A stretch of 64,000 nt of DNA from Azolla caroliniana. Its lineage: Eukaryota; Plantae; Polypodiophyta. Location: NCBI GenBank assembly GCA_043228905.1, contig JBHGNT010000010.1:4526001-4590000 (forward strand). The letters run 5' to 3'. The position numbers and the translations under genes were made by a program. Position 1 is the stretch's first letter, and each line of letters opens with the position of its first letter. Positions 17,622 to 48,807 of this stretch are shown here, one piece after another. The notes beneath the pieces were generated by a model. That model did no database searches. It worked only from the letters and a program-made list of their open reading frames with translations, and was not told the DNA's origin.

Positions 17622-17637
17622 CTTCTGTGTTATCGTC

Positions 17638-17649: not shown

Positions 17650-19356
17650 CTTTGTAAAGTTTTGACGCTATCAAATCTTTCGCCTCTCGGCCACAACCGA
17701 GACAACACGGATCAATGCAGCAGAAAAATAAAAACAAAGACACAGAGAGATGAATACACAGGGTATAACGTGGAAAACCCTAAACGGGAAAAACCATGGG
17801 AGTGCACGACTCCAACTACCACTATACACTGGAATATACAATGGCGAGCTGCAAGGCGACGACCTTGAGCTCGCTGTCCTCGCCACAGGCGGCGGTATTA
17901 CACAGAGGCGTCGACCTCTTCGTTTCTCTCTCTCTCTCTCTCGGCTGCTCTCACTTCGCTCCCTCTAAGTGGAAAAACAGACAATGAGCAACAACATAAA
18001 ACTGTTTGCCCTAAGTCATATTTATACACATATGACTTTCGGGCTATTTACAAATATAGCCTCAAGGGCTCTTGGCAAACATATTCACAAATATGTCTCC
18101 GCATCCGGATCTCTCTCCGGGTACATTCATCATCCGGTTCCGTAACCGGGGTCTTCATCATCCGGCTCCGTAACCGGGGTCTTCATCATCCGGTTCCGTA
18201 ACCGGGGTCTTCATCATCCGGTTCCGTAACCGCAACCGGGCTTGCCGTCATTCATCTCCGGACATCCCATCCGGAGGGACCGTAATCCCAACAATTACCT
18301 CGACGGTGATAGATTGATAAGATAGATTGCCATTTGTAGTGCCTCGGTCTAGAATTCTAGCTTTAGTCTGGGGTGTTGGAGCATTGCCGTCACCCTTTCC
18401 TGAATCGTCCAGTTGATCCGTTCCGCCAATCCATGTTGCATGGGTGTGTAGGGGACGATCTTTTGGTGTCGGATCCCTTTGTCAGACAGGTACTGTTTGA
18501 AGGCTCGGGAGGTGTATTCATCTCCATTGTCGGATCAGAGTGTCTTCACTCTGTATCCTGACCGGTTCTCCACTTTAGTTATTCACTGAGTGAAGACCTC
18601 GAGCGCTTCGTCTTTCGACCTAATCGAGTAGGCCCAAACCTTCCGTGTATAGTCATCTACGAATGTGATGAAGTACCGAGAGCCTCCTAGTGATCGCTCG
18701 GGCATTAGTCCACATATATCTGTGTGGAGCAGTGTTAGAGTCGATGTATCGTCTCATAGTGGAGAGACTGGCAACTTCGGGTTTGTTTCTCGTAACAACA
18801 ATGTTAACAGAAGTCCATCTTTGTGTGGAGTTTTGGGATGTGACCGATTTCCATCAGTCAGTCTAGTCTAGCTTGAGACATATGGTCGAGTTGGCCATGC
18901 CATAAATTGGAGTCCCGCGATTTGGCTATGTTCATTGCCCCTTCTGGATTGATTGCCATCAATGGGTACAAGTTATTGTACTTCTATCCGTTCTCGATTT
19001 TTAGATTTCCTCAGCTGATCATCCATGTCAACTCACTGAGAGTCGTTCTGTACCCAGCTTCGGCTAGTATACCAATGGAGACCAGACTCCTTTTCAGTGT
19101 GGGTACATGCTGGACTTGGTGCAGGGTGATAATATTGCCATTTGGCAATTGGATGGAACCTCTCCGATCCCTATGATTACGCACTCCTACCCGTTGCCGA
19201 GTCAGACTGTGTCGCTAGCTTCGGTCACGTGAAATGTGGCACTGGAGTTCAATAGCCACATTTGTGTGTCCTGCGCACTGTATAAGACTTCTTTGATCAA
19301 CGAGTCCTCTAGAAAGAGAATTTCTCCTGTTCGGGAGTCGACAACATTGATTTGGT

Positions 19357-25189: not shown

Positions 25190-27592
25190 TGTTTCCTCGG
25201 GATCGAAGTGATCCGTACCCCCGAAGGCATATTGATCAGCCAACGCCATTATGTGTTGAGTATGCTCTTCAAATTCGGGATGGCCGACTGTAAGTCCGTC
25301 TCGACTCCTCTGGATAGAACTGTCAAGCTTCGCACCAATTCCGGAAAGGTATGTGACCCGACGATGTTCCGAAAAATTGTCAAAAGCCTTATCTACTTGA
25401 CAATCACCCGACCCGATCTCAGTTACCTAGTCGGGGTGATCAGTCAGTTCATGGCGCGACCTACCGAGGAGCACCTTCAGTGTGCGCAACGTGTACTGCG
25501 ATACGTTGTCGTGAAGAAAACCGTCCCTTAGCGCAATCGGTGCATAGCGCGCGTGAACCGGCTCTTCACGCGTGCGCGCCCTTAATGTATATAATAGGGG
25601 ATTAGGTACATAGGTATATCCTGGGTAGCTAGATTCGGTAGGTAGGAAGTAAATGAGGGAGACGGCTCCCTTCTGGATGCTATAAAGAAAAGGGAGACGC
25701 AGAGGAGAAGGGGATCGCGCGTTAAGGAGGACGAAGTGTTGTCGGACTGTAACCGAACGCTTCTCCTCTGTTTGTTCTCTATCACTCTTCTCTGCAGGTT
25801 TTCGGGAGGCTCGCGCTGCTTCGAGGAACGCTCGTGTGCTTCCGGCAGCACCTCCATCCTATCCCTTTTCGTGCACAGACGAACAGGCATCAACATCTGT
25901 TCGCCGGCCTAGTCGGTTGTAACCGCTCGCGCGCTCTGTTGTGTATTTGTTATTCGTTAATATACAAACTTTCGTGTCTCTCTGTCTCTGTGTCCATTCG
26001 CGTTCTCTGCGTTGACGGGCCGTGTCCCTGTGTTTCTTTGCTCATACGTAACCGGTCGTCTCTCTCTCTTTCTCTTTCCCCTCCTATCACCTGCTCTTCG
26101 GTTTAAGACCCCGGTGGTCCCGCCTCGTTTTCTCCATGCACGCGCGTAGCAACGCGACAACGTAAGCGGCACTAAGGATCGGGGACTGCTATATCAGACC
26201 GGTACAGCCTCGCAGTTGGTCGGCTACACCGATGTTGATTGGGCCGGCAACGCCGCCGATCGCCGATCCACGTCCGGATACACGTTCTCTCTTGGGAGTG
26301 CCGCGGTAGCGTGGTGCAATAAGAAGCAGCCAACAGTTGCACTGTCGAGCACCGAAGCCGAGTACCGAGGAGCGGCTGTCGCGACTTAAGGATCTGCAGG
26401 TAGAGGTGTTCGATCCAACAACGATCTATTGCGACAACCTCAACAACATCTAGCTCGCGAAGAACCCCGTTTTCCACGCACGGACCAAGCACATTAAGGT
26501 GCACTACCATTTCGTCCGTGAGCATGTCCTTTCTAGTGAAGTCGAACTTCAGCATGTTCCGACGGATCGGCAGACCGCCGACATCTTCACCAAACCTCTT
26601 GGACGGAACAAGTTGTGGCAATTCTCGGGTGCGCTTGGGTTGCGTCACCTTGACGTGCCGAACTTGAGGGTGAGAGATGTCCCGAATGACCACGAAAGGG
26701 GGAGAGAAGACCGTGACGCCGAGTCCGATGTCGAATTCGATTTCGGATCGGCTAAAGAAGCCGAGGGCGGACCCGCGGAAGAGCCGAAGCCAACCAAGTG
26801 TGGGCGAGACGAAGCCATTAAGGGAGAGAAGACCGAAGACGAGTTGGAGACAGCCAACTCGGACGAGAGCGAAAACCGATCGGAGGGAGCCGAGTCGGTT
26901 CGGATGTTTGATTCGGATACGTTGAATCAACCAAGGGCCAAGCGGAAAAGAAGGTAACAGGAGAAACGCCAACACCGCGACAACAAGGGAGCTGTGAAGG
27001 GTCGTGGGAGCAGACAAGTCGACCAGAAGGGTCAAAGCGCGCGGAGTCGAACAGGCCGAGGAGCGTAAGCGAGGCATGGAGCCAGGAGAAGCCGGAACGT
27101 AGATTCGGTGGAGCAAGCGGAACCTCAAGTTGAGCTTGAGGGGGAGTGTTGAGAGACAAGCTCAACATTTGTGCGTAATATGATGCGTAACCAGTGCGTA
27201 GATTGGGTGCGTAAAATCGGTACGCATAACATGGTCGTAGCGGTGCGTAAACCGCGAGGCCATTTGAAAGTTATTCCTCGTAAGGAATAGTTTTGGGAGT
27301 AAGTGTCGAGGCTCATTTATGAGCAGTCAAGCACTGCCAGCACTTGTGTCAGCCCATTGTTAGGGCTTGTATAAAAGGTGCTCACTAAGCACGATGTATG
27401 TACAGAGTTAGCATTTTTTAATTGAGTTCTCTGTGTTCTCTCTCTATCTCTCCCGCGTACTGTGTATACTCAAGCTCTCCATTAAACCTGCGTATTTTCT
27501 CTATGTTCGTTTTTCTATTGCCTTTGCACATAATCTTTCACAATCCTATCGCAACCAGGCGAGGATGGGCAGTCCCATCCAGTCGCGTATCA
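25190..27592 (+). mobile_element. 5'-truncated Ty1/Copia (RT end, RNase H, acidic 3' extension, PPT, 3' LTR 27147-27592)
   Basis: FLGIEV...LIYLTITRPDLSY...RVLRYVSGT, GYTDVDWAG, STEAEY, ADIFTKPL. PPT GAGGGGGAG is followed by TGTTGAG...GTATCA. Confidence 0.85.
25507..26159 (+). mobile_element. Solo LTR (653 bp) of the A/B/C Gypsy group, 4-bp TSD ACGT
   Basis: TGTCGTGAAGAAAACCGTCC...CAACGCGACA, with ACGT at 25503-25506 and 26160-26163. Removing it restores the Copia reading R-Y-V-S-G-T. Confidence 0.93.
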
Positions 27593-30500
27593 CTCGAGAA
27601 AATTTAATGTTGCGGAGATAAACTATGAGGTGCATGACAAGGAGTTACTAGACGTGGTTGACTCTTTCGAGCAATGGTGACATTTCTTAGAAAGATCGCC
27701 TCATCAGATCATCATTTATAGCGATCACAAAAATCTTACATATTTTTGAACAGCTCAAGTGTTAGATAGGCGACAAGCTCGGTGGGCCCAATTTCTAACT
27801 AATTTCGATTTCAAGATCATTTTTCGCCCTGGAAAACAATAAGGGAAAGCAAATGCTTTGTCTCGTCGTTCATATTTGGCACTTCGACCTAGAGATCCGG
27901 CCTTAGACTATCAAAAGTAGATTCTCCTCGGACCATCAAAGCTACAGACAACAACAGTTTATGCCACGCCACTTGATTCAAGCCTTCTTGATACTATTTG
28001 GCAACAATTTCACTCTGACGATTTAACTGAGGATGTCTTAGCCCACATTGGTTCAAGCCATGCATCTTGCTCCACATTGCAAGGGTCATCTAAACACTAT
28101 CAGGATTGCACGTGCCAAGATGACCTACTCTTCTACAAGAATCTCCTTTATGTCCTTGACGGATCACCTCGAGTTCAAGTGTTAGAACATTGTCATGATG
28201 CCCTATGGCTGGACATTTTGGTATTGCCAAGACCGTTGAGTTAGTCAAGTGTTCGTTTTCGTGGCCTCACTTACAAAAATTTGTCGAAGATTACGTTCAC
28301 ACATGTGACATTGTTGTCGCGCCAAAATACCCAGGCATCATCCTTATGGCTTGCTACAACCATTACCGCCTCCTAACAAGCCATGGCAATCTATTTCTAT
28401 GGATTTCATTACGGATTTGCCACCTTCCAGAGGCTTTGATACTATTTTAACAATAGTGGATCGATTTACCAAGATGGCGCATTTTTTGCCATATGTAAAG
28501 AGCACCAATAGTCAAGAAACCGCAAATTTCATTATGTGTGAAGTGTTTGCCATTATGGTCTTCCAAACGATATAATTAGCAATCGTGGTTCTCAATTTAT
28601 CTCTCACTTTTGGAAGCACATATGGGCAGGCCTCAAAATCTCTGCAAACTCTCTTCGGGTTATCATCCACAAATTGACAGACAAACAGAGTGCACAAATA
28701 CGCTCGAACAGTATCTTCGATGCTTCATCAGTTATTAACAAGATGATTAAAGTTTTCATACAACAACACGGTGTCGAGGTTTTCCTCGCGGATGAGTGGA
28801 ATGAGGCGGGACCTCGGGGGTCTTGTACCAAAGAGCAAGAGAGAAAGGAGAAGATGCCCACTACGTGCGAGAGTAGATCCACAGGGACACGACCCTTCGA
28901 CGCAAAGACGCAAGTGGGACAGCGACACAGAAAGACACGAATGTATGTATGTATTAACGAAGACAAACAACAAGAACACGAAGACAACAAAACACGAAGT
29001 CGGTTACAACCGAATAGGCCGGCGAACAGATGCCGATACCTGCTCGTAAACGCACAGAGAGGAAGGAGTAGGTTGGAGGTGCTGCCGGAAGCACTCGGGC
29101 ATTCCTCAGAGCAGCGCGAGCCTCCCGAAACCTGCACAGAAGGAAGCTATGGCGTTCGCGAACCAGTGAGAGAGAGAGAGAGAAGCCTTCGCCCGCAAAC
29201 CGACAACACTTCGTCCTCGACTCTCCGCGATCCTTCGCCCCTCCTCGTCGCCCTCCTTTTATAGGTAAGGAAGGAGCCGTTTCCCTACCTACCGAATCTA
29301 CCTGCCTAGGATCTTCTATGTACAACAAGAGGCGCATGTGCACGAAGAGCCGGTTCCTATGCTCCGGTGCACCGATTCCGCTTGTGGACGGTTTTCTTCA
29401 CGACATCCGCCCCCACCTAACCGCGGATCCACCGGCATGCGCCAAATTGTGTTGGGACGGAGAAAACCGGTTGCCCACGAGGAGATCGTACGTTCCATCG
29501 GCATGATCGGCATGTGCCCAAACATGAGCTTTGCCGGCATGAATTCGGTTACCGAACTGTGCGTAGTTCGGTCAGCCCACAACACGTAAGGCAGCAGTCG
29601 CGGCCAGTTTCCGACTTGACCTCCGCATGCCCGAACTAACGCCTTGACGATCGGTCCGTGTCCGCGCTCCACCTTTCCATTCGCCTCCGGATTGTACGCA
29701 GTGGTAAGCGAGAGCTTGACTCCTACCCGGTCGAACAGCTCCTCGGCCTCTTCGGCGTCCAACTCCCCGCGATCAGCCACGATCTTCCCGACGCACCCGT
29801 ACCGGCATATCACGTCCTCAATCAGGAACCGACATACGGCCGCAGTCGTTTTGTTCTGAAGGGCTCAGCCTTCCACCTAGTTCCTCAGATCTTCCCGAGC
29901 CAGGACCAGATACCGCATCTGTCCTACTCCCATCGGCATCGTCACCAGATCTACCATCCATTTGAAGTGGATGGTCGGAGGGTACGTAGGGTGAAGCTCG
30001 TCCCGATGTCGGACTACGGAGTGCATCTGGCAGCTCTCGCAAGTTGTCACGAACCGATGCACGTCCCGGTACAGTCCCGGCCACCAGTACTTCCCCTTTA
30101 TCTTCTCGAACGTGGCCCACGTTCCACGGTGTCCAGCCCAAGGGCTGTCGTAGTAGGCCGTCAACAGCTCCTCCTGTTCTCCCTTCATCGCCACCACCCG
30201 GAGCGGGACGCCGTTCCTCTTCTTCGGGTGCTTCCATAAGTATCCGTCCCGGAGAAAGCATCGGTAAGCTTTCTTCCGGATCCGGTTGGCCTCGTCCTTC
30301 GTCCATGACGCATCCGGCGTCATTGTCCTCAGAAACCCACCGATCTGCAGCCACTCGCCGTCTTACTTGCTCTCGTCGAAGCCGTTAAGTGCCGGAGTGC
30401 TTGCCCCATCGGTCGTCACGTACGCCGCCTCGAAGAAGTCCACGCCGACTTCTTCGTCCTCCGAAACCATGCCGCCCTCGTCATCAAACCTCGCCCTCGA

Positions 30501-33500
30501 AAGCATGTCGGCCATGGCGTTGTCTTTTCCGGAAATGTGTCGTATTTCCAGGTCCAGGGACTTGATGTACGCTATCCACCTGAGCATAGCCAGGTCCGGT
30601 GTCGCGCATCCGGAAACCATGCCGAGAATCGGCAGGCAATCCGTCTTGATAACCACTTCTGTCCCGATCAGGTAGTCTTTGTCGGCCTTTACTGCCGAAA
30701 CGATACCCCAGAGTTCGCGTTTAACCTGGGCGTACCCTCGCTGTCGTTCACTGAGGACCTTAGCGCCGAATCGGATCGGGAACCGGGTGCCGTCCCCGTC
30801 TTCTTGGTTGACGACCCATCCGATCCCGGTCGGACTCGTATCCACCATTATGTATACCGGGGTACCCTTCTCGTAGACAGCCTTCCGGAGCGCCGAGGCT
30901 GCCGCAAGAGCTTCCTTCAGCTTCCGGACCGACTCCGTGTGCTCGTCTCGCCACTCGAATTTTCGCCCTTTCTTCAGCAACCCGTATAGCGGCTCCGCAA
31001 CGTGGGCGTAATGAGGGATCCATATGTGGTAGAACGCACATGCCCCCAGGAACCTCCGAACTTACGTAACCGAGCTACAATCGGTCTTCATCGCGGAGAT
31101 GGCTTCTACCTTTGCCGGAGACGGCTTCCGGCCATAAGGTCCACATAGGTGTCCGACCACCAGGATTTCTGATTGCCCGAAGGCCGATTTCTCCCCGGAG
31201 AAGGTGAGCCTCGCATCCTCTAGCCTTTGTAGCACCTTCTCGCAGTCGTCGATGTGTGTCGCCACGAATCGCCGGCATCCGTCCGGCCCGACTGTCTCGT
31301 CCTTCTCCTCCATCGGGCACCCCTTGATCGGGATGTCGTCTACAAACGGCATGGTGATGTCTGGGATGCAATCCCTTAGTACCTTGTTCATTGCATTCAC
31401 CATGTGGGCCACCGTGTTGGTCCCTCCTTGTGGCAGGGTACACATTCGCACTAGGCTGAGGGGAGTTCGCATCGTCGTAATATCTCTGCTCTCCACGGCT
31501 AGCTGGAACTGGTCGTACCCCGAGTACAGATCACCGACCGAGTAAATTGACCTTCCGGCGAAGGCCTCCGCGAACTCGTCTATGGTCGGTCCGATTCCTG
31601 TGTTCCGAATGGTCACTCTGTTGACCGGCTGCAGGTCTTGAATGAAGCGCATCGTTCCGTTTTTCTTTGGTACGGTAAACCATCGGTTCGAGTATGGGGC
31701 ACTCGACGGTTCGAGAATGCCCATATCTACTTTCTGCCTCAATAGCTCCATCAACTTCGGGATGTGAGCTCTTGGTACCGGAATCGGCTTGAGATTCCAC
31801 GGTTCATGCGGTACCGTGAATATCACCATCGGCTCCACGATCGTCGGGTCTACGCACCTGATCTCTTCCGGTGAGAATGCGAAGGCTTTCCCGTGCCTTC
31901 CGAGCATTCTCTGAAACCGGTCTTCCTCCGCCGGCAGTAGGAACCCGCCCCCACCGATCTTGAGCTCCCGGAGCGTCCTATCGGTGAAGGTGTGTCCTAT
32001 GCAGGCCGGATCTCGTAAACTGGGGTCCGACGCCACCCCTCTGATTCGGGACTCGCTGCCCTCCGGTAAGGGTGCCGCGACCGGCCTTACCTTCCGGTCC
32101 ACAGTCTTGTACTTCGTGCTAACTCGGGCCATCCGATCCGACTCGAGCCCTTGACTGAAGTCCGCGATGACTTCGTACATCTCTTCGGAACATACCGGTA
32201 TCGTCCGGTCTTCGTTAAGGTCTTCTCCGACTACCTTCCTCAGCATTCCCAAGGTGTCGTCGAAGGAGACCGCCTCCACGGCTCCGCTGATTTCCTCGTC
32301 CGGGCCGAGAACTCCGCACGCTCGAAGTCCCTCCTCCGCCCTTGCCCTTTCTCGGCCAACGATGCCGACTATCATACATCCTCCGTCGTCCGAGAAGCAA
32401 AATTTCCTGCCTATTGTACAAGGTTTCTTCGGTTTCGGTTCTATTGTACAACATGGGGTCTTTCCCGAGTGTCCAGACTGTCTCGGCCCCACGCCTTGGC
32501 AGCCCTCTCTAAAAATCCTCTCGGTTCTCGCCACCGAGGGATTTGCGGTTCCGCTCGTGGTTCGGCCGCACCGTCAGAAATTGGACCGAATGGCACCCGT
32601 CTTGGCTTTTGACCCTCGCGTAGGCCGACCCGTTGTCCAACACTTTGGTCTCCATCCGCGCCGCCGTGATGTATGGTTCACCTAATATGACCGGGTGCGA
32701 GGACGTCTCCTGTACGAAGAAGTGTTGGTCAATCTCGACGTCGCCGATCTTGACTCGCACGTTCGGGCAGGCCCCATGCAGTTCCTCGGTGGCACGCGTC
32801 GCCGCCCGTATCTTCCACCCGTGCTTGGTGTTGATCGGCCACTTCCCCTTCTTATAGAAGTCCATGGACATCAGCTTTATTTTCGAATCGTGGTCCACCA
32901 GTGCCACCACCGGTTCCTGAACCTCTCCGATCTTTACCGGGGTCTCCGTGGTCGCTCGGGCCCAGTGTGGCCTCCAATAGTGGCTCTCCGCCCACTCATC
33001 TGCCAGCGCCGAGTCGTCGATGTGTGTCGTCCGCACCTCTACCGGTCTTTCCGGATCTGTCTCCGTCGACAGCCTCTTCCGTTTCACCAAGTCTACAATG
33101 GAGTCGTGGAACTCCTTCTTGGCGATCCCTAACACCTCTCGCAATGATAGCTCCACTTTGCTGTCGAGGATCCGTTTTTCTAGGACCTTTCGTAGGTCCG
33201 TAGTCCTTTCTATCTCCGTCCCCAGTCGGTATCCGCCCTGCCTGGGGTTATCTTGCGAGCTGGACCCGTCGGCATCGTTCCGTCGTTGCCCGAATCGGGT
33301 CTCGTATCGTTGTGAGGGCCCGGCCGCTCCGGCTTTCCCCACTCGCTTGTCTTCTACCAGAGCCTCGTAGTTCCGGCAGGCGGCTTCTACGAAGCCCGTC
33401 TTCTCCTCGACCGGATCGCTCCACCCGGTTATTTCCCGGACCCGTCTCTCAGCGCGGTGTCGCGTTGTTACGCGCGTGCGTGGAGAAGGGCGGAACCACG

Positions 33501-34123
33501 GGGGTCTCGGACTAAGGAGAAGGGGAGAAGGAATAGGACTTCGGAATGGAGCTTAGCACAAGAAGAGGAAGAATGAACAAGAGGAAGATAGAGGCCAAAC
33601 GCTCAACAAGATATATTAGAAACGAAAACCGATTACAAAATGGCGGCCGCGTAGGTCGCACCGAACGACTATGATAAACCCGAAACCCTAATCCGACGAA
33701 GAAGAAAAGAAACCCTAAACGAAACCCTAACCCTAAAACGAAATGGTATACCTCACTCACACTCAAAAATAAGGCAACCCCCACAATGGTGCTCTTCCTC
33801 TCCCTTTATAGCACAAGGAGAGAAGACCGTTTACAAAAAGGGTGCTACCAAATATCCCCTTTCAATCAATGGGGATATTTCCCTTGATTTTAGGGGAGGT
33901 GGGAAGGATGGGTCTTAACTCCCACCTCTACACGAACTACTATGTACCTATCTCTCTCTCTCTCTCACGTGGATGTGCGCGCAAAAGCACATCACCTTTA
34001 CACTTTACAAATCCTAAGGTGCATTTCTAGCACCATACTTATCACTATCGATAAATAGAAATACAACATGGTGATGTGCAACGTTGCACATCGCGGGTTT
34101 GCTTGCTTCGCTCGGGTTTCCGC

Positions 34124-37100
34124 CTATGGACGAAAATCTTCACGACATCCGCCCCCACCTAACCGCACATCCACCGGTATGTGCCAAAAGGGGACAAAAC
34201 GCGAGATTTTCGGCCAAGGCGGCCAACCGAGCCCTTGACAACCTCGTGGGCTTGCCCGGCTTTGTCTTCCACTTCGAGCAAGTCCACCCCGTCCACACGA
34301 ACCACCGTCGCCTTCCGGCCCACCATCTCCACCGAATGGTCTCGAACCGTCGGCTCCATCCGATCCGCCACACTTGACAACGTTCGCCGAGTCGTTGCCT
34401 CCACCCGATCCGCCACGTCCATCGTGATTCTTTGAACCACCGTCTGCATCCGGACCGCCGTTTCCGATGCCCGCGCCTTCTTCCCCGATCGGTCCTCCCG
34501 AACGCCGTTGCCGACCCGGTTGCTCTTCTTTTGTCCGCCTCGTATAGCCTCCGGATGCTCTCCCGATCTCTCCGGTTGCACGCCGGATTCCGCCTTTCCC
34601 GTGCTTGCCGTGCTCTCTCGCCGTAGAGCATACCATCGTTCCCGTGCTCGTTGCTTGGCCCTCATGCGGCCGCATTGCACGTTTCGCATTCCGCTCCTCT
34701 TCGCGTACCCTTTCGGAAAGGTACCTTTCTTCCCCGACCTCCGTTTCGCTCGGAGGAACACCCTCTTGGCCCTCTTGGTCCGCTCGACCGCACACATCCT
34801 TCGTGATGTCGTGTTCGTTCTTTTGGGCGCATACATCTTCGTTCTCCGCGACCTCCCGTATGCCTCTCTCGGTGCCTTCATCCGTTGTGGCCTTCGTCCC
34901 CTCGCCGCCACCGTCCGCCACTCTTGGTCTCACGTCGGCACTCGCGCCGACCGCCGGAGTCTCTATAGCCGGTGTGGAGGATCCCTCTCGGGCCTTATCT
35001 TCGTGGCCGCCGGTCTTAGCCTCTCCGTAGGCCACCTCTTCCCACCAATCTTCCCTAGCATCGTGCCAGGTCTTGTCGTCGTCGCCTTCCTCCTCGTATT
35101 CGCCTCTCGAAGGCGTGATCCGACCGTCATCTTCGGTCGCTCGATGTGGCTCCTTCGTAGGCATGCTTGTGTCTTGGCCCTCCATCGGCCATATTGCATG
35201 CATCTCGTCTCGCTCTTCCGCCGTAGATCCGACCTCCGTGTCGGTCTTCTCCTCCTTTGTCGCCGTAGCCCGTTCCGACACGGGCTCGCCGTCTTGGACC
35301 CACCCGTCCACCATCTCGTACCGGATATCCGTTCCGGTAACCTCGTACGCTCCGGCCTCCGACTCCTCGCCGCTACCCGCCGTCTCTCCGGTCTTATGTT
35401 GATCCGCAACCGCCGTAGTCTCTAGAGTGGATATGGAGGGTCTCGTTTGTTTCCGTTTTCCCCCCGAACCATGGTCGTCGTGCCCGGTTAGCCTCCATCT
35501 CGCGCTTACCGGCTCCCATCGCAACCGTAACCGTAACCGTAACCGGCCAATCGGTCTTGCCGGCTTCCTTCGGTTTGGGCCCGGTTCGCCGGCCCTTACT
35601 CTCTTCTTCTTCCGTGCCGTATTCCGGTCGGGTCGGTTCCCGACTCTCTCCTCGTTTCCGCTCCGGTCCTCTCCGTCGGACCCACCGTATACGCCCATTC
35701 CGGGCCCCGCATACTCGTCTTCGTATGCGCTCTCTCCGGGCCTCACCTCCTCACGGTCACCGCCCATCTCTCCGGTCTCACGTTGGCATTCGAGCACAAC
35801 CGCCGAAGTCTCCGGCCCCGGTGTCAAGGGGTCTTGCCTCCGTCTGCTCCAATCTTCCTTCTCGTTTCCGTTGCCTGCCTTGCCGCCGTCACCTCCCGTC
35901 GCACTAAGCCTCATGCCGGCACTCGGGCCGGCCATTGGAGCCTCTAGGATTGGTGTGGGTAAGGTCCCGGCACCACCGCTTGTTGTCTCCGTAGCCGCTT
36001 TCGTTCGGACGTCGTCGTCCGCAGCTCCCCCATCTCCGATTCCGTAAGCCTCTAGTATGCTTGCCACCACCTCTTCTTCGCCGTTCTCCGCGTCATTTTG
36101 TTTGCCCGCCTTGCCGCCGCCACCGCCCGTCGTTCTAGGTCTCGTGCCGGCACTCGGGCCGACCGCCGAAGCCTCTAGGGCCGGTGTGTGGAAGGTCGCG
36201 GCACCACCGCTCGCCTCCTCTCCGCTCGATGTTTTGGGCCGCCGTGCCCCGAATCTTCCGCCCACTTTCGAAGTGGCGCTCTCCGCTTTGTAGTCACCGG
36301 CCTCATCCTTGGCCGTCCATTCGCCGCAAGACGAGAGGGTTGCTCGCTCCGCACCCTCTCCCATGTCGTCGTCGTTTCGGTTGCCCGCCTTGCCGCCGCC
36401 ACCGTCCGTCACTCTAGGCCTCTCGCCGGCTCTCGGGCCGGGTGCCGGAGTCTCTAGGACCGGTGTGTGGAAGGTCACGACACCACCACTCCTCTCGTCC
36501 GTAGCCACCTCCATTCGGACATCGTCGTCCGTGGCTACCCCGTCTTCGGTTTCGCAAGCATCGAGTATGCTTGCCGCCGCCTCTTCTTCGCCGGTCTCGT
36601 CCTCATCTCGGTTGTCCACCTTGCCGCCGCCACCGTCCGTAGCTCTAGGTCTCGTGCCGGCACTCGGGCCGACCGCCGAAGCCTCTAGGGCCGGTGTGTG
36701 GAAGGTCGCGACACCATCGCTCGTTTCATCTTCCTCCTCCATTTCGCAAGCCTCGAGTATGCTCGCGAAATCCTCGTAGAACGTTTCGGGCAATCGCGTC
36801 CCGAAACTTCCGCCCACTCTCGAAGTGGCGTCCATCGCTCCGTAGATATCGGCCTCGTCCATGGCCGTTCTTTTTCCCCGAGATGAGACGGTCGCTTCCT
36901 CCGCACCTTCTCTCGTGTCGACGCCGTGGTCGCCCGCCTTGCCACCGCCACCGCCTTTCACCATAGGTCTTACGCGGGCACTCGGGCCGGCCGCCGTGAT
37001 CTCTAGCAATGACGCGTGTAAGGTCGCGGGACCGCCGCTCGTCGATGTAATGTCCGTAGCCACCTCCGCTCGGACGTCGCTGTCCGTGGCTACCCCGCCT

Positions 37101-38320: not shown

Positions 38321-38340
38321 CTCTTTCTCCCTTGCCGCCC

Positions 38341-38358
38341 TTCACGTCGGGTTCACCA
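38341..38358 (-). promoter_or_regulatory. Primer binding site complementary to the plant tRNA-Trp 3' end (also 40183-40200; partial at 46256-46269)
   Basis: Plus strand TTCACGTCGGGTTCACCA matches the 3' 18 nt of plant cytosolic tRNA-Trp(CCA) as recalled; it sits 3-4 nt from each 5' LTR. Confidence 0.85.
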
Positions 38359-40841
38359 AGGATGTCGCGTTGTTACGCGCGTGCGTGGAGAAGGGCGGAA
38401 CCACGGGGGTCTCGGACTAAGGAGAAGGGGAGAAGGAATAGGACTTCGGAATGGAGCTTAGCACAAGAAGAGGAAGAATGAACAAGAGGAAGATAGAGGC
38501 CAAACGCTCAACAAGATATATTAGAAACGAAAACCGATTACAAAATGGCGGCCGCGTAGGTCGCACCGAACGACTATGATAAACCCGAAACCCTAATCCG
38601 ACGAAGAAGAAAAGAAACCCTAAACGAAACCCTAACCCTAAAACGAAATGGTATACCTCACTCACACTCAAAAATAAGGCAACCCCCACAATGGTGCTCT
38701 TCCTCTCCCTTTATAGCACAAGGAGAGAAGACCGTTTACAAAAAGGGTGCTACCAAATATCCCCTTTCAATCAATGGGGATATTTCCCTTGATTTTAGGG
38801 GAGGTGGGAAGGATGGGTCTTAACTCCCACCTCTACACGAACTACTATGTACCTATCTCTCTCTCTCTCTCACGTGGATGTGCGCGCAAAAGCACATCAC
38901 CTTTACACTTTACAAATCCTAAGGTGCATTTCTAGCACCATACTTATCACTATCGATAAATAGAAATACAACATGGTGATGTGCAACGTTGCACATCGCG
39001 GGTTTGCTTGCTTCGCTCGGGTTTCCGCCTATGGACGAAAATCTTCACGACAGCGGTCCGTTTCATCTTTCCTTAGCCGTGTGCCGCCAAGACCTTCCAG
39101 CATTGCCGCCCAGAATCCGTCTTTGCCCTCCTTTCGGGCCTCGCTGCACCCGACCCGAATGCCGGCCAACGCCGAGTAGTGGATGGCTTCCACGTGTCGG
39201 GCCGCTGCCTCTTCCATCAGTCTCTTCATACCTCCTCGTCCGTCGTTTCGGTTCAGGGCCCTCCTGGTGTCGCCGGCGTGCACCCGGCCTTCCCACAGGT
39301 ACACCACATGTTCCCTGCTGCCGGCCGTCGGTCACGAACCGGTTCGTTGCCTTCCCTTCGAGTCTGGGCGATCTGGAGATCCTTTATCACCCGCGTCAAT
39401 TCCTCCAGCGCTGCTCCTCCGGACGAGCCACTGACCATGCCGGTCGAAGCCGGACCGGTCCCGAGCCATTCCCGGGTCTCTTCCCTTCGCACTTGCGGTG
39501 CCGGTTCAAGCCTCCTTGCTGTGACAGAGCCCGCACCTCCCGCCCCGTTGTCAGCCCATTCTCGCCGTTTATCGAAACAGCCACAGACTCTCTTAACTGC
39601 GGCCCAGTTGGTTGTCAGCCCGTCCTCGGTTTCCAACAAGGAGCCGACTTGGTCCCGGTCCCGCTCGTCCACCGACTTGACGAACAGTAGGACCCGGCTC
39701 GTATCCAGAACGGTTCGGTCAAGCGCCGAAAGGCGCGCAAAGCGTTCTTCGAACTCCCGGAGGAGTGTCGTCGCGTTTCTTCCCTTGCCGGGGAACTCCA
39801 CCCATTCCATGAAGTCCCTTTTCGAAAGCCGGAGCGTGTCGTCCAGCCCGTATTTTTCTAGGAGTCGGCCTTCGAACTCCTCCCAGGTACGGCTCTCCGC
39901 CCGCACCTCGAGCACCTCCACATGGATGCTCGGCATCGCCACTCGAGGAAACCTGGCAAGACGCCTCTCTTCCGGAATGTCCCGCATCAGCATTTCTGCC
40001 CGTAGGACGCCAAATACTTCGTGGCATCCTTTCCGCTGAACCGGCCGATCGTACCGACGACCGCCTCAATGGCTCTGTCGAGGGCGCCGGTGCCCTCGCG
40101 TGCACTCAATATCCAATCTACGGCCGAAGCCATGGCTTCTGCAAGATCCGACCCTTTCATCTTCTGCTCTTCTGCCGCCTCCTTCACGTCGGGTTCACCA
40201 AGATGTCGAGGTTTTCCTCGCGGATGCGTGGAATGAGGCGGGACCTCGGGGGTCCTGTACCAAAGAGCAAGAGAGAAAGGAGAAGATGCCCACTACGTGC
40301 GAGCGTAGATCCACAGGGACACGGCCCTTCGACGCAAAGACGCAAGTGGGAAAGCGACACAGAAAGACACGAATGTATGTATGTATTAACGAAGACAAAC
40401 AACAAGAACACGAAGACAACAAAACACGAAGTCGGTTACAACCGAACAGGCCGACTAACAGATGCCGATACCTGCTCGTAAACGCACAGAGAGGAAGGAG
40501 TAGGTTGGAGGTGCTGCCGGAAGCACTCGGGCATTCCTCAGAGCAGCGCGAGCCTCCCGAAACCTGCACAGAAGGAAGCTATGGCGTTCGCGAACCAGAG
40601 AGAGAGAGAGAGAGAAGCCTTCGCCCGCAAACCGACAACACTTCGTCCTCGACTCTCCGCGATCCTTCGCCCCTCCTCGTCGCCCTCCTTTTATAAGTAA
40701 GGAAGGAGCCGTTTCCCTACCTACCGAATCTACCTACCTAGGATCTTCTATGTACAACAAGAGGCGCATGTGCACGAAGAGCCGGTTCCTACGCTCCGGT
40801 GCACCGATTCCGCTTGTGGACGGTTTTCTTCACGACAATGG

Positions 40842-43800
40842 TGTCGTGGTATTCCTCGCGGATGCGTGGAATGAGGCAGGACCTCGGGGGTCTTGTACCG
40901 AAGGGCAAGAGAGAAAGGAGAAGGGAGGGGACCCACTACGTGCGAGCGTAGATTCACAGGGACACGGCCCTTCGACATAAAGACGTGAGTGCGACCCCGA
41001 CACAGAGAGACACGAATGTACGTAAATATATATATTAACAAGACAAACGACAAGAAGCACGAAGTCGGTTACAACCGAACAGGCCGGTGAACAGATGCCG
41101 ATGCCTGTTCGTAAACGCACAGAAAGAAAAGAGTAGGTTGGAGGTGCTGCCGGAAGCACTCGGGCATTCCTCAGAGCAGCGCGAGCCTCCCGAAACCTGC
41201 ACAAAAAGAAGCCACGGAGCTTGGGGGGAGAGAGAGAGAAGCCTTCGCCCACAAACCGACAACACTTCGTCCTCTTCTATTCGCGATTCCCTTTTCCCCT
41301 CCTCGTCTCCCTCCTCTTATAGGCAAGGAAGGAGCTGTTTCCCATTAACTTCCTACCTACCGAATCTACCTACCTAGGATCTTCTATGTACCTAATTCTC
41401 TCTTATGTACAATATAAGGCGTACGTGCATGAAGAGCCGGTTCCTACACTCCGGTGTACCGATTCTGCTTGTGGACGGTTTTCTTCACGACATCCGCCCC
41501 CACCTAACCGCGCATCCTCCGGCATGCGCCAAATTGAGTCGGGACGGAGAAAACCGGTCCAGCCTTCATTCCTCGCCCGTCGGTTCTTCCTCGGTTTCGG
41601 ATCGTTCGTCGTCGTGGTCCAGGTTAACCGGATCCGGCTCGTCGTCGTGACGCTTTTTGAACGCTTTGATCCGCTTCCCAGCTACCGGTATCGCCATTCT
41701 CGTGCCGTCGAGTTCCGCCAGATGGTATGTCCCGTTGTCGTTGGCGCTTTGTACCACGTAAGGTCCGAACCACATTCTCGCGAACTTTCGTGTCGCTCGG
41801 TGCTGGTTGTCGAGACTGTTGTCGTAGACTAGCACCCAGTCGCCTTCCTCGATCTTCTTCGGTCGGAGACGGTGCGTTCGGTCGAACCGGGCTTTGTTCC
41901 TCGTCCTTGCCACCCGAAGCTCTCTCGCGGCCTGCTCCACGTCCTCCGGTCTTCGCTCGAGCTGTCGTATGCGCGCCGCCAACAGTTCCTCCCAGCTCAT
42001 CTCGTCACTCCAGTCCACGGTTGCCCATGACGAGATCGTACGTTCCATCGGCATGATCGGCTTCTGCCCAAACATGAGCTCTGCCCGGCATGAATCCGGT
42101 TACCGAACTGTGCGTAGTTCGGTCTGCCCACAACGCGTAAGGCAGCAGCCGCGGCCAGTTCTCGACTTGACCCCCGCATGCCCGAACTAACGCCTTGACG
42201 ATCAGTCCGTGTCCGCGCTCCACCTTCCCATTCGCCTCTGGATTGTACGCAGTGGTAAGCGAGAGCTTGACTCCTAGCCGGTCGAACAGCTCCTCGGCCT
42301 CTTCGGCGTCCAACTCCCCGCGATCAGCCACGATCTTCCCGACGCACCCGTACCGGCATATCACGTCCTCGATCAGGAACCGACATACGGCCGCGGTCGT
42401 TTTGTTCTGAAGGGCTCAGCCTTCCACCTAGTTCCTCAGATCTTCCCGAGCCAGGACCAGATACCGCATCTGTCCTACTCCCATCGGCATCGTCACCAGA
42501 TCTACCATCCATTTGAAGTGCATGGTCGGAGGGTACGTAGGGTGAAGCTCGTCCCGATGTCGGACTACGGAGTGCATCTGGCAGCTCTCGCAAGTTGTCA
42601 CGAACCGATGCACGTCCCGGTACAGTCCCGGCCACCAGTACTTCCCCTTTATCTTCTCGAATGTGGCCCACGTTCCACCTTGTCCAGCCCAAGGGCTGTC
42701 GTGGTAGGCCGTCAGCAGCTCCTCCTGTTCTTCCTTCATCGCCACTACCCGGAGCGGGGCGCCGTTCCTCTTCTTCAGGTGCTTCCATAAGTATCCGTCC
42801 CGGAGAAAGAATCGGTAAGCTTTCTTCCGGATCCGGTTTGCCTCGTCCCTCGTCCATGACGCATCCGGCGTCATTGTCTTCAAGAAACCACCGATCTGTA
42901 GCCACTCGCTGTCGTACTTGCTCTCGTCGAAGCCGTTAAGTGCCGGAGTGCCCGTCCCATCGGTCGTCACGTACGCCGCCTCGAAGAAGTCCACGCCGAC
43001 TTCTTCGTCCTCCGAAACCATGCCGCCCTCGTCATCAAACCTCGCCCTCGAAAGCATGTCGGCCATGGCGTTGTCCTTTCCGGAAATGTGTCGTATTTCC
43101 GGGTCTAGGGACTTGATGTACGCTATCCACTTGAGCATCGCCAGGTCCGGTGTCGCGCACCCGGAAACCATGCCGAGAATCGGCAGGCAATCCGTCTCGA
43201 TAATCACTTCCGTCCCGATCAGGTAGTCTTTGTCGGCCTTTACTGCCGAAACGATACCCCAGAGTTCGCGTTTAACCTGGGCGTACCCTCGTTGTCGCTC
43301 ACTGAGGACCTTCGCGTCGAATCGGATCGGGAACCGAACGCCGTCCTCGTGTTCTTGGTTGACGACCCATCCGATCCCGGTCGGACTCGTATCCACCGTT
43401 ATGTATACCGGGGTACCCTTCTCGTAGACAGCCTTCCGGAGCGCCGGTGCTGCCGAAAGAGCTCCCTGCAGCTTCCGGACCGACTCCGTGTGCTCGTCTC
43501 GCCACTCGAATTTTAGCCCCTTCTTCAGCAACCCGTATAGCGGCTCCGCAACGTGGGCGTAATGCGGGATCCATATGTGGTAGAATGCGCATGCCCCCAG
43601 GAACCTTCGAACTTCCGTAACCGAGCTACAGTCAGTCTTCATCGCGGAGATGGCTTTTACTTTTGCCGGAGACGGCTTCCGGCCATACGGTCCACATAGG
43701 TGTCCGACCACTAGGATTTCTGATTGCCCGAAGGCCGATTTCTCCCCGGAGAAGGTGAGCCTCGCATCCTCTAGCCTTTGTAGCACCTTCTCGCAGTCGT

Positions 43801-46800
43801 CGATGTGTGTTGATACGAATCGCCGTCATCCGTCCTGCCCGAGTGTCTCATCCTTCTCTTGCACCAGGCACCCCTTGATCGGGATGTCGTCTAGAAACGG
43901 CATGGTGATGTCCGGGATGCAATCCCTCAGTACCTTGTTCATTGCATTCACCATTTGGGCCACCGAGTTGGTCCCTCCTTATGACAGGGTACACATTCAC
44001 ACTAGGCCGAGGGGAGTTCGCATCGTCGTAATGTCTCTGCTCTCCACGGCTAGCTGGAACTGGTCGTACCCCGAGTACAGATCACCGACCGAGTAAATCG
44101 ACCTTCCGGCGAAGGCCTCCGTGAACTCGTCTATGGTCGGTCCGATTCCTGCGTTCCGGAAGGTCAATGTTCCGTTTTTCTTCGGTACGGTAAACCATGG
44201 GTTCGAGTATGGGGCACTTGACGGTTCGAGAATGGCCATATCGACTTTCTGCCTCAATAGTTCCATCAACTTCGGGATGTGAGCTCTCGGTACTGGAATC
44301 GGCTTGAGATTCCACGATACATGCAGTACCGTGAATATCACCATCGGCTCCACGATTGTCGGCTCGAGCTCTTGACTGAAGTTCGCGATGACTTCGTACA
44401 CCTCTTGGGAACATACCGGTATCGTCCGGTCTTCGATAAGGTCTTCCCCGGCTACCTTCCTCAGCATTCCCAAGGTGTCATCGAAGGAGACCGCCTCTAC
44501 GGCTCCGCTGATTTCCTCGTCCGGGCCGAGAACTCCGCACGCTCGAAGTCGCTCCTCCGCCCTTGCCCTTTCTCGGCCAGCGATGCCGACTATCATACAC
44601 CCTCCGTCGTTGGAGAAGCAAAATTTTCTACCTATCGTACAAGGATTCTTCGGTTTCGGTTCTATCGTACAGCTGTGGGGTCTTTCCCGAGTGTCCGGAC
44701 TGTCTCGGCCCCACGCCTCGGCAGCCCTTTCTAAAAATCCTCCCGGTTCTCGCCATCGAGGTATTCGTAGTTTCGCTCGTAGTTCGTCCGCACCGTCAGA
44801 AATTGGACCGAATGGCGCCCGTCCTGGCTTTTGACCCTCGCGTAGGCCGAACCATTGTCCAGCACTTTGGTCTCCATTCTCGCCGCCGTGATGTATGGTT
44901 CCCCTAAAATGACCAGATGCGAGGACGTCTCCTGTACGAAGAAGTGCTGGTCAATCTCGACGTCGCCGATCTTGACTCGCACATTCGGGCAGGCCCCGTG
45001 CAGTTCCTCTGTGGCGCGTGTCGCCGCCCGTATCTTCCACCCGTGCTTGGTGTTGATCGGCCATTTTCCCTTCTTATAGAAGTCCATGGACATCAGGTTT
45101 ATTTCCGAACCGTGGTCCACCAGTGCTACCACCGGTTCTTGAACATCTCCGATCTTTACCGGGGTCTCTGTGGTCGCTCGGGCCCAGTGTGGCCTCGAAT
45201 AGTGGCTCTCCGCCCACCCATCTTCCACCGCTAAGTTGTCGATGTGCGTCGTCCGCACCTCCACCAGTCTTTCCGGTTCCGTCTCCGTCGACAGCCTCTT
45301 CCGTTTCACCAAGTCTACAATGGAGTCGTGGAACTCCTTGGCGATCCCTAGCACCTCCCGCAATGATAGCTCCACTTTGCTGTCGAGGATCCGTTCTTCT
45401 AGGACCTTTCATAGGTCCGTGGTCCTTTCTATTTCCGTCCCCAGTCGGTATTCACCCTTCCTGGGGTTATCTTGCGAGTTGGACCCACCGACATCGTTCC
45501 GTCGTTGCCCGAATCGGGTCTCGTACTGTTGTGAGGGCCCGGGCGCTCCGGCTTTCCCCACTCATTTGTCTTCTACCAGAGCCTCGTAGTTCCGGCAGGC
45601 GGCTCCTACGAAGCCCGTCTTCTCCTCGACCGGGTCACTCTACCCGGTTACTTCCCGGACCCGTCTCTCAACGCGGTCCGCTTCATCTTTCCTCAACCGT
45701 GCGCCGGCGAGGCCTTCTAGCATTGCCGACCAGAATCCGTCTTTGCTCTCCTCTCGGGCCTCGCTGCCTCCGACCCGAATGCCGGCCGACGCCGAGTAGT
45801 GGATGGCCTCCACGTGTCGGGCCGCTGCCTCTTCTATCAGTTTCTTCATCCCTCCTCGCCCGTCGTTTCGGTTTAGGGCCCTTCTGGTGTCGCCGGCGTG
45901 CACCCGGCCTTCCCACAGGTACACCACCCGGTTCCTCAACGCCTCTGCGAAGTCGCCGCAGTCCTTCCGAATGTGGCCGACCTCGTCGCACCACATGCAC
46001 CTGTTCCCTGCTGCCGGCCGTTGGTCACGAGCCGGTTCGCCGCCTTCCCTTCGATTCTGGGCGATCTGGAGATCCTTTATCGCCCACGTCAACTCCTCCA
46101 GCGCTGCTCCTCCGGACGAGCCATTGACCATGCCGGTCGAAGCCGGACCGGTTTCGAGCCATTCCCGGGTTTCTTCCCTTCGCCCTTGCGGTGCCGGTTC
46201 AAGCCTCCTTGCTGTGACAGAGCCCGCACCGGCCACCCCGTTGTCAGCCCATTCTCGTCGGGTTCACCAAGATGTCGTGGTATTCCTCGCGGATGCGTGG
46301 AATGAGGCGGGACCTCGGGGGTCTTGTACCGAAGGGCAAGAGAGAAAGGAGAAGGGAGGGGACCCACTACGTGCGAGCGTAGATTCACAGGGACACGGCC
46401 CTTCGACACAAAGACGCGAGTGCGACCCCGACACAGAGAGACACGAATGTATGTAAATATATATATTAACAAGACAAACGACAAGAAGCACGAAGTCGGT
46501 TACAACCGAACAGGCCGGCGAACAGATGCCGATGCCTGTTCGTAAACGCACAGAAAGAAAAGAGTAGGTTGGAGGTGCTGCCGGAAGCACTCGGGCATTC
46601 CTCAGAGCAGCGCGAGCCTCCTGAAACCTGCACAGAAAGAAGCCACGGAGCTTCGGGGGAGAGAGAGAGAAGCCTTCGCCCACAAACCGACAGCACTTCG
46701 TCCTCTTCTATTCGCGATTCCCTTTTCCCCTCCTCGTCTCCCTCCTCTTATAGGCAAGGAAGGAGTCGTTTCCCATTAACTTCCTACCTACCGAATCTAC

Positions 46801-46923
46801 CTACCTAGGATCTTCTATGTACCTAATTCTCTCTTATGTACAATATAAGGCGTACGTGCATGAAGAGCCGGTTCCTACGCTCCGGTGTACCGATTCTGCT
46901 TGTGGACGGTTTTCTTCACGACA
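40842..46923 (-). mobile_element. Gypsy element C (sister of A), defective
   Basis: 651-bp LTRs at 40842-41492 and 46273-46923 (about a dozen differences). Gag zinc knuckle CMWCDEVGHIRKDC, PR ALVDHGSEINLM, RT FLDD, RH, INT with WFGPY. Gag N-terminus deleted. Confidence 0.95.
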
Positions 46924-47978
46924 ACGGTACACTCTTCTACCAAAGTTACACCTTTCTTTGCCTACACTGACAACCACCTTCGATGGTGTATCCTGGATCT
47001 TCCCGGGATGTCACAAAACCCTAGTATGACGCATCACCTCCACCAACTACAACAAATCCAGTTCGAGTTATCGTCACATCTTTAGAGGGCTCAAGCACAC
47101 CATAAGACCAATGCAAATCAACATCGCCTTAAGTCTCCTTTTAAGGTTGGTGACCGAGTATGGTTGCTTCGTCGTCACATCAATAGTACCCGATCATGTG
47201 CTAAGCTCAATTTTCAACGTTTAGGTCCTTTTGCCATCACAACGCAGATTAATGATGCAACATTTCGTCTTAACCTTCCTGCACACATGCGACTTCACCC
47301 AATCTTTCATAGCTCTCTTTTGGAGCCATGCCGCACCTTTTTAATTCCTAATCGTGTTGTGCCCCCTCCGCCTTCTGTCCAACTTGTTGATGGCCCCGAA
47401 TACGATGTAGCTACTATTTTTTATTCTAAGATTGTGCGCAATAAGCTCTATTATCTAGTTGATTGGCTTGGTTATCCTCTGAATGATCGCACTCGGGAAC
47501 CTGTCGATAACATTTGTAATGCTCAAGCTCTTGTCGACGACTTCCATTGCCACTATCCAGACAAACCTGGCCCAACAATGTTAACGCTAACTTCCACTCG
47601 TCGTTCTCAAAGGAGGGATAGTGTCACGAACACATGACCATTATGGCATTGTCATGATGTTTTCATACCACGATGAGAAAATAACCTCAACCAAATTATA
47701 TGAACTGATTCAAAACTTTGTAAATGGTTGTTTAGCTAAGAGATAACTAATAACTTGATAAGAACATTCGCCATAGGATGATAATAGCTAGTTGAATCTG
47801 CGATAAAACATAATATCGAGTAGAATAGTTTAAAGCGAAATACCTATTATTAACACACTTGTTATTATCACTATTAGGTATTTTAACTATAAATCTATTA
47901 AAGCTATTACCCACTTTTAAAGCTAAATACCTATTATCAACACACTTGTTATTATCACTATCAACTATTTTAGCTATT

Positions 47979-48570: not shown

Positions 48571-48757
48571 GGAAATTGGTAAATTCATAGTTTTTTTTGT
48601 ATTTTTTCATAGTTTTTTTGTTTAGTTGAGAAATATGATTATTTGTGTGCTCACTCACAGTTTATATTTGCACTACATATTTTGTTATAAACAGAGGCGC
48701 GAAATTACTCGCTCGCTCGCTCACAGTAACGGCTCCCTCCCTCCCTGCATATTATGC

Positions 48758-48807
<50 letters not shown>

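What the first reader, a model, noticed from the sequence alone, without database searches (positions are those of the whole stretch)
25503..46927. Gypsy group whose every insertion has a 4-bp TSD centred on CpG
Seen: solo LTR TSD ACGT, element B TSD GCGG, elements A and C TSD ACGG (consensus RCGK on the plus strand), all inside other retrotransposons. Established: plant LTR elements usually make 5-bp TSDs with little sequence preference, while 4-bp CGCG specificity is known for Drosophila errantiviruses (ZAM, Tirant). Inference: this integrase has no chromodomain and reads CpG (perhaps methyl-CpG) directly, steering insertions into CpG-rich TE DNA as a safe haven. Only three independent sites are visible here.
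Basis: partly seen in the sequence, partly recalled or inferred. Interest (0 to 1): 0.8.

Follow-up and report, generated by a model that had tools for sequence, protein, structure and literature searches.

The report
Phygy-type retrotransposons inserting at CpG
These plant jumping genes really do insert almost only at four-letter sites with CG in the middle, but that habit is already published for the Phygy group of mosses, to which they likely belong, and we found no sign that they sense DNA methylation.

Summary
The window has four insertions at three sites, each with a 4-bp duplication centred on CG. A and C sit head-to-tail at one site (ACGG-A-ATGG-C-ACGG). In metagenome contigs, 72 of 78 further insertion sites of the same LTR family have a central CG against 3.5% background; the motif is VCGB, mostly ACGT.

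It is not new. Neumann et al. 2019 report that Phygy, a chromodomain-less Ty3/gypsy clade of Physcomitrium, makes 4-bp NCGN duplications in 100% of 186 elements. The window's elements are homologous to Physcomitrium, Riccia and Adiantum proteins and share Phygy's listed traits, though they are somewhat shorter and the tRNA-Trp primer assignment is recalled.

The methyl-CpG safe-haven idea is unsupported. No methyl-reader domain was found. CpG density around the sites is no higher than around randomly picked VCGB sites. At least 32 of 78 flanks are repeats, which is unremarkable in a TE-rich genome.

The likely mechanism is sequence readout at a kinked central step, as in the foamy-virus intasome (VYRB). 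Searches of this scan's notes returned no earlier report of it.

The parts
25503..25506 (.). left TSD copy ACGT of the solo LTR, inside a copia RT/RNase H frame
25507..26159 (+). solo LTR of the Phygy-like family (TGTCG...CGACA, 653 bp; 70-83% identical to the other LTRs)
26160..26163 (.). right TSD copy ACGT
28768..28771 (.). left TSD copy ACGG of the A+C pair, inside a chromovirus integrase frame
28772..40837 (-). element A (6467 bp without B): 5' LTR 40204-40837, 3' LTR 28772-29405 (98.1% identical); gag/DUF4100-protease, RT, RNase H, integrase; stops in pol; integrase C-terminal part missing relative to C
33454..33457 (.). left TSD copy GCGG of element B
33458..39052 (-). element B (5595 bp), non-autonomous: identical 690-bp LTRs, same PBS and PPT, one 1405-codon stop-free gag-like frame (34124-38341) with internal repeats, no pol; nested in the gag of A
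39053..39056 (.). right TSD copy GCGG of element B
40183..40200 (-). primer-binding site of A, 3 nt after the 5' LTR (also in B and, shorter, in C); matches the 3' end of plant tRNA-Trp by recall only
   Evidence: a tool check found no tRNA gene to confirm it
40838..40841 (.). junction TSD copy ATGG between A and C (ACGG with one C>T)
40842..46923 (-). element C (6082 bp): LTRs 46273-46923 and 40842-41492 (98.2% identical); deletions in gag and RT; integrase with DDE core, GPY motif, SH3-like barrel and acidic tail, no chromodomain
41493..41509 (-). G-rich polypurine-tract-like sequence before the 3' LTR, the same 17 bases in A, B and C
46924..46927 (.). right TSD copy ACGG of the A+C pair

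Best explanation
These are non-chromovirus Ty3/gypsy retrotransposons, likely of the Phygy clade, that insert at 4-bp VCGB sites (mostly ACGT), likely because the integrase itself kinks the target at the central step and reads C-G there whether or not it is methylated. Shown: the 4-bp duplication, the VCGB motif, the lack of a chromodomain, and homology to Physcomitrium, Riccia and Adiantum proteins. Taken from the literature on other integrases: a 4-bp stagger needs a sharp bend at a flexible pyrimidine-purine step, and the foamy-virus consensus is VYRB, with T disfavoured first and A last. Inferred: this integrase narrows YR to CG by base contacts. Nesting in other TEs would then follow from TE abundance, from the family's own CpG-rich DNA (9.5% CG against 3.3% in the rest of the window), and from selection against insertions in genes. 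A duplicated site stays a target, so a second element can enter it, which likely gave the A-C pair. B, and probably the already broken A and C, were likely moved in trans.
For: 72 of 78 unique sites have central CG; 4 of the other 6 have CA or TG, the products of CpG decay; TA was used 0 times although CA, TG and TA steps are each about twice as common as CG in the flanks. ACGT was used 33 times against 4.3 expected from flank availability, TCGA 0 against 9.4; T first 0 of 72 (p 3e-15), A last 3 of 72 (p 1e-10). In four runs that hold the window's P450 gene (3 samples), the majority letters after the LTR end read A-CGT (15, 12, 19 and 7 contigs). Phygy: 186 elements, 4-bp TSD 100% NCGN, tRNA-Trp PBS 81%, no extra domain. 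29 of the 120 listed hits to the gag-protease frame are Physcomitrium patens proteins. The RT-end/RNase H tree puts window, Adiantum and Riccia rows in one clade (SH-aLRT 99) apart from other gypsy rows. PFV consensus VYRB and the central YR kink come from PMC4422553 passages; PFV integrase is the best PDB match of the core (E 5.9e-10). Drosophila ZAM-group elements choose CGCG in a species described as having lost DNA methylation. No rise in local CpG density beyond site choice.
Against: No labelled Phygy reference was available for a clade test: the REXdb fasta and element table were too large to read. The Physcomitrium proteins cover mainly gag-protease, and the protease tree leaves window, Physcomitrium, Adiantum and Riccia groups unresolved. 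A and C (6.5 and 6.1 kb, about 7.1 kb if their deletions are allowed for) are shorter than the 7.7-10.0 kb of Physcomitrium Phygy. Of 6 solo-like loci with both flanks, only 2 have identical 4-mers; the other 4 differ, though all 12 four-mers are NCGN. That is probably chimeric assembly or recombination, which was not shown. The metagenome contigs are 65-96% alike to the window's LTRs, may come from related species, and favour low-copy flanks, so the CpG-density test is biased against TE-nested sites. No methylation data were seen, and no residue was shown to contact CG.
Confidence: 0.75

Rival explanations
1. The integrase prefers methylated CpG, which sends insertions into silenced TE DNA as a safe haven.
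For: All 3 window sites and at least 32 of 78 extra sites lie in TE or repeat DNA. CpG-decay changes at TSDs (ATGG in the window; 4 of 78 CA/TG) suggest that sites were methylated at some time. Phygy is reported nested in Tcn1 in Physcomitrium (PMC6911290) and enriched at centromeres in a liverwort (PMC12885004). There is a precedent for methyl-CpG-guided retrotransposons, through a captured MBD (PMC6673714 abstract).
Against: No MBD, SRA or chromodomain among the precomputed Pfam domains of 120 pol homologues. The C-terminal model has no PDB match at E<=0.001, and its weak matches are SH3/Tudor barrels and Ty3 integrase. Decay of a TSD can follow insertion, because a new TE and its edges become methylated (general knowledge). 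Local CpG density is not raised beyond site choice, unlike CopiaMBD. One site lies about 75 bp from a UDP-glycosyltransferase frame (L063). Physcomitrium is 57% TE by recall, so 41% or more nesting needs no targeting.
Confidence: 0.13
2. CG is read by the integrase, but a separate chromatin tether (the SH3/Tudor-like C-terminal barrel, the acidic tail, or a host partner) biases insertions to heterochromatin.
For: The C-terminal barrel's weak structural neighbours include Tudor and Agenet histone readers (E 1.5e-3 to 4e-2). The acidic tail is conserved in character across homologues. Centromeric enrichment of Phygy in Apopellia.
Against: Retroviral and Ty3 integrase C-terminal domains are SH3-like barrels in general, and they appear in the same list. 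No regional bias was detected in these data, though the data are biased toward low-copy flanks.
Confidence: 0.1
3. The pattern is chance in CpG-rich nested DNA, or mis-set LTR ends.
For: Only three sites in the window, two of them in CG-rich DNA.
Against: 72 of 78 independent sites, and CG at no other offset more than 6 times. The ends are fixed by paired LTRs, PBS and PPT.
Confidence: 0.01

Closest known systems
Phygy clade, non-chromovirus Ty3/gypsy (Neumann et al. 2019, PMC6317226; passages and Additional file 5 read)
   Same: 4-bp TSD with NCGN preference, no chromodomain or extra RNase H, short internal region filled by coding sequence, PBS that matches tRNA-Trp (assignment recalled), homology to Physcomitrium gag-protease (DUF4100), nesting inside a chromovirus integrase upstream of its chromodomain as in Jedlicka et al. 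2019 (PMC6911290, section 7 read).
   Different: Somewhat shorter elements. The motif is refined here to VCGB with ACGT dominant. A non-autonomous gag-only partner (B) and same-site double insertions were not seen in the passages read.
Prototype foamy virus intasome (Serrao et al. 2015, PMC4422553; passages read)
   Same: 4-bp duplication, central pyrimidine-purine step, T disfavoured first and A last (VYRB); best PDB sequence match of the integrase core.
   Different: PFV's preference is weak and accepts any YR step; here 92% of sites are CG. The residue three after the second catalytic Asp is Glu in all 66 of the 120 homologues where the motif could be read (RGE 64, NGE 2); PFV has Ala188 there by recalled numbering.
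Drosophila ZAM-subgroup errantiviruses (Nefedova and Kim 2017, PMC5408687; passages read)
   Same: 4-bp palindromic CG-containing target (CGCG).
   Different: Separate lineage, AGT...AnT ends, env gene; target CGCG. GCGC was used in 1 of 72 sites here; CGCG is not of the NCGN form.
Double insertion at one target site (McGurk and Barbash 2018, PMC5932611; passages read)
   Same: Head-to-tail elements separated by one TSD copy.
   Different: Shown there mainly for P-element, jockey and R1; here for two LTR subfamilies with LTRs about 91% identical. It also differs from plant tandems that share an LTR (PMC11899658, passages read).
CopiaMBD of arthropods (de Mendoza et al. 2019, PMC6673714; abstract read)
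   Different: It uses a captured MBD and accumulates in CpG-dense regions; neither was found here.
Selgy and TatI (same table)
   Same: 4-bp TSD; TatI also uses tRNA-Trp.
   Different: Selgy uses tRNA-Ala and is about 5 kb; TatI carries an extra archaeal-type RNase H; no NCGN preference is listed for either.

Membership tests
Phygy | 4-bp TSD | tested here: met
   3 of 3 window sites; CG at -3/-2 on left ends and at +2/+3 on 13 of 14 right ends
Phygy | NCGN target preference | tested here: met
   72 of 78 unique flanks
Phygy | No chromodomain and no extra (aRH) domain in the polyprotein | tested here: met
   C's integrase ends with GPY motif, barrel and acidic tail; no Chromo or extra RNase H family among the precomputed domains of 120 homologues; tails of 37-97 residues after the GPY motif in all but one homologue where it was found
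Phygy | PBS complementary to tRNA-Trp | tested here: inconclusive
   A conserved PBS is present in A, B, C and 10 loci; its match to plant tRNA-Trp is recalled; a search for a tRNA gene with that end found 31 matches, none in a tRNA
Phygy | Placement in the Phygy clade on RT/RH/INT trees with REXdb references | tested here: inconclusive
   References could not be read. Physcomitrium gag-protease proteins are close homologues (protease region 55-68% identical), assumed but not shown to be Phygy; one supported clade with Riccia and Adiantum rows
Phygy | Size 7.7-10.0 kb (descriptive, from Physcomitrium) | tested here: inconclusive
   A 6467 bp and C 6082 bp, both with deletions; about 7.1 kb if these are allowed for
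Chromovirus (Tcn1, Galadriel, Tekay) | Chromodomain at the integrase C-terminus | tested here: not met
TatI | Extra archaeal-type RNase H | tested here: not met
   Only RT_RNaseH families between RT and integrase
Methyl-CpG-guided retrotransposon (CopiaMBD-like) | Encoded methyl-CpG reader domain | tested here: not met
Methyl-CpG-guided retrotransposon (CopiaMBD-like) | Preference for methylated over unmethylated target | not testable with these tools
   no methylome or assay available

The most novel reading that the evidence does not exclude
The Phygy-type integrase is the most sequence-specific plant LTR integrase, with its CG rule kept from mosses to ferns, and it favours 5-methyl-CG at the kinked central step without any reader domain, so that the host's own silencing mark chooses where it lands and old target duplications beside silenced LTRs are reused.
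Probability: 0.12. Interest if true: 0.75.

Novelty: new member of a known kind. Interest (0 to 1): 0.22.

Why it matters
The core fact is in print, so the finding is modest. What it adds is a sharper motif (VCGB, ACGT about eightfold over availability), evidence that the rule holds outside Physcomitrium (likely in a fern), and same-site double insertions. An LTR integrase that is 92% specific for one dinucleotide is a clean system for asking how intasomes read target bases. Why Phygy chooses CG was not addressed in the papers found. If methyl-CG were the true signal, it would be a reader-free link between DNA methylation and integration.

Tried and rejected
No whole genome is held for this window, so the genome-wide logo was replaced by metagenome contigs and sequencing-run contigs.

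A Pfam scan of whole frames read through stops did not run; stop-to-stop frames were scanned instead.

Naming the host clade from the P450 gene failed: the named hits were angiosperm proteins at up to 57% identity, and the Atlas gave no answer.

Confirming the tRNA behind the PBS failed. ARAGORN and Rfam found nothing in the window.

No contig was seen to span the A-C junction in the four runs laid; short contigs prove nothing either way.

A 5-bp TSD was rejected. YR flexibility alone was rejected because TA, CA and TG steps are commoner than CG but hardly used.

A hot spot beside LTR ends is not established: 1 of 78 flanks (L080) is too few.

Glu three residues after the second catalytic Asp is a weak candidate for CG reading. 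In PFV that position contacts base -3 outside the duplication, where no preference is seen here.

GingerRoot and Helenus/Ajax were read in passages and are not relevant. Vendrell-Mir 2020 (passages) gives no TSD data. The profile-library search served only to supply distant rows for the tree.

Full report
Anatomy. Self-comparison and end mapping show seven related LTRs, all TGTCG...CGACA: a solo LTR (25507-26159, +) and three elements on the minus strand. A spans 28772-40837, with LTRs differing at 12 of 634 positions. B spans 33458-39052 inside A's gag and has identical LTRs. C spans 40842-46923, with LTRs differing at 12 of 651 positions. A, B and C share a PBS just after the 5' LTR and a 17-base G-rich tract before the 3' LTR. 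A and C encode DUF4100/gag, protease, RT, RNase H and integrase in gypsy order; both are broken and share two in-frame stops in the integrase. B has one long gag-like frame and no pol.

The target duplications. The solo LTR is flanked by ACGT, B by GCGG, and the A-C pair reads ACGG-A-ATGG-C-ACGG. With the insertions removed, the host reading frames run on across all three sites: copia RT/RNase H, a chromovirus integrase, and A's own gag. B's empty site is also seen directly in C. So four insertions used three sites, and A and C most likely entered the same site one after the other, as described for double insertions in Drosophila (PMC5932611, passages). The middle copy has one C>T change at the CpG.

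Independent test. I dropped 9 that do not continue as family LTR (1 of the 9 has CG at the test position). 30 are preceded by the PPT or a remnant of it and are 3' LTRs. The 81 others collapse to 78 unique flanks. Of these, 72 have CG at -3/-2, 4 have CA or TG, and 2 have something else; background is 3.5% and no other offset has more than 6 CGs. On right ends, 13 of 14 have CG at +2/+3 (a looser pattern gave 15 of 20, with 2 at +3/+4). This fixes the length at 4. The motif is VCGB: ACGT 33 against 4.3 expected, TCGA 0 against 9.4, with a mild C just outside (33 of 78 against 21%, p 3e-5). Of 6 solo-like loci with both flanks, only 2 have matching 4-mers; the other 4 have two different NCGN words, probably from chimeric assembly or recombination. 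These contigs are 65-96% alike to the window's LTRs and need not be the same species. In four runs that hold the window's P450 gene, the majority letters beyond the LTR end are A-CGT in 15, 12, 19 and 7 contigs.

What it is. Neumann et al. 2019 state that Phygy elements are the exception among plant LTR retrotransposons in having an insertion preference for NCGN (passages). Their Additional file 5 lists 186 elements with 4-bp TSD in 100%, tRNA-Trp PBS in 81%, no extra domain, and 7.7-10.0 kb. Their element table and sequences were too large to read, so their TSD base counts and reference sequences were not seen. Jedlicka et al. 2019 report GC-rich centres in 4-bp TSDs and Phygy nested in Tcn1, six times between integrase and chromodomain, the same arrangement as the A-C pair. 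The named homologues of the window's pol are from Riccia and Adiantum; 29 of 120 listed hits to the gag-protease frame are from Physcomitrium. A protease tree (86 rows; 34 metagenome rows thinned out) leaves these groups unresolved. An RT-end/RNase H tree (79 rows; every third of 126 distant rows kept; quick method, long branches present) gives one clade with SH-aLRT 99, in which the window's group is nearest Adiantum at 89. Membership of Phygy is therefore likely but not formally shown, and a fern host is likely but weakly supported.

How it likely works. Retroviral integrases with a 4-bp stagger bend the target sharply at a central pyrimidine-purine step and disfavour T first and A last; the foamy-virus consensus is VYRB (PMC4422553, passages). 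VCGB is a narrowed form of that, and PFV integrase is the closest solved structure to the core. Flexibility alone is not enough, because CA, TG and TA steps are each about twice as common as CG in the flanks yet were used 3, 1 and 0 times. Some base-specific contact is therefore inferred; which residue makes it is unknown. The C-terminal region is a long helix, an SH3-like barrel with the GPY motif, and an acidic tail (model from a 66-row alignment, mean pLDDT 74, pTM 0.50). It has no PDB match at E<=0.001; the weak matches are Tudor/SH3 barrels and Ty3 integrase, with no MBD or SRA fold among the rows shown.

The safe-haven and methylation claims. CpG density in the 250 bp beside 75 sites (8.8) is higher than at random positions in distal flank DNA (6.2, p 6e-6) but no higher than at random VCGB sites there (9.5, not significant). 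It is lower than at random VCGB sites in the window's non-family DNA (12.7). Choosing a CG site thus explains the local enrichment. By tblastn, blastn and Pfam (105 frames from 50 of the 78 loci), at least 32 of 78 flanks are TE or repeat DNA after removing two that matched only their own duplicates; this is a lower bound. One site is about 75 bp from a glycosyltransferase frame. Metagenome assembly favours low-copy flanks, so these tests cannot exclude a heterochromatin bias. The family's own DNA is CpG-rich (9.5% against 3.3%), which by itself favours self-nesting such as B in A. Drosophila ZAM-group elements select CGCG in a species without DNA methylation, so CG reading does not need methylation. 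Methyl preference remains untested; I put it at about 0.13.

Verdict. The feature is real and well supported, and it is a likely new member of a lineage whose CG-centred targeting was published in 2019. Searches for NCGN with retrotransposon, for Phygy and for methylation-dependent integration found no mechanistic study in the held library; subscription papers are mostly missing from it. Three look-ups in this scan's notes by words and sequence returned nothing; the look-up by place showed 8 of 35 notes, all on other elements.

Noticed in passing
L080 (LTR end, ACGT, LTR start) and run X1 joint (8 letters CCGCGCGG between LTR end and LTR start): Two more head-to-tail junctions. One has a single TSD copy; the other has two adjacent NCGN words, as if a second element landed four bases from the first.
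   Followed up: partly
window 34124-38341 (-): Element B, the youngest insertion (identical LTRs), keeps a 1405-codon stop-free frame: a gag-like N-terminus followed by about 1100 residues of repetitive, low-complexity sequence, with no Pfam match and no pol.
   Followed up: partly
window 29879/29867 (A) and 42430/42418 (C): A and C share the same two in-frame stops in the integrase, which suggests copying from an already defective lineage moved in trans, or parallel methylation-driven decay.
   Followed up: no
window 29406-29450, 34148-34192, 41493-41537 (-) and PPT-preceded loci: A conserved short inverted repeat lies just upstream of the PPT, with one paired change between subfamilies (GCACAT/ATGTGC against GCGCAT/ATGCGC); predicted folds vary and energies are modest.
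   Followed up: partly
window 12894-13535 and 17653-18294: A 642-bp repeat, 100% identical, flanks a copia with an uninterrupted 1388-codon gag-pol frame (13545-17711, -): a very young, apparently intact element nested in another copia.
   Followed up: no
window 4991-6981 (+): A cytochrome P450 gene (CYP71-clan-like by its hits) with a GC-rich first part, the only host gene recognised in the frames scanned.
   Followed up: partly
window 48730-50682 (+): A MULE/FAR1-type transposase region.
   Followed up: no
L063:1222-1728: A family LTR starts about 75 bp from a UDP-glycosyltransferase frame.
   Followed up: no
same genome, other pieces: Several earlier notes describe a different gypsy group with a tRNA-Arg-like site in place of the PPT; the elements studied here have an ordinary G-rich tract.
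   Followed up: no
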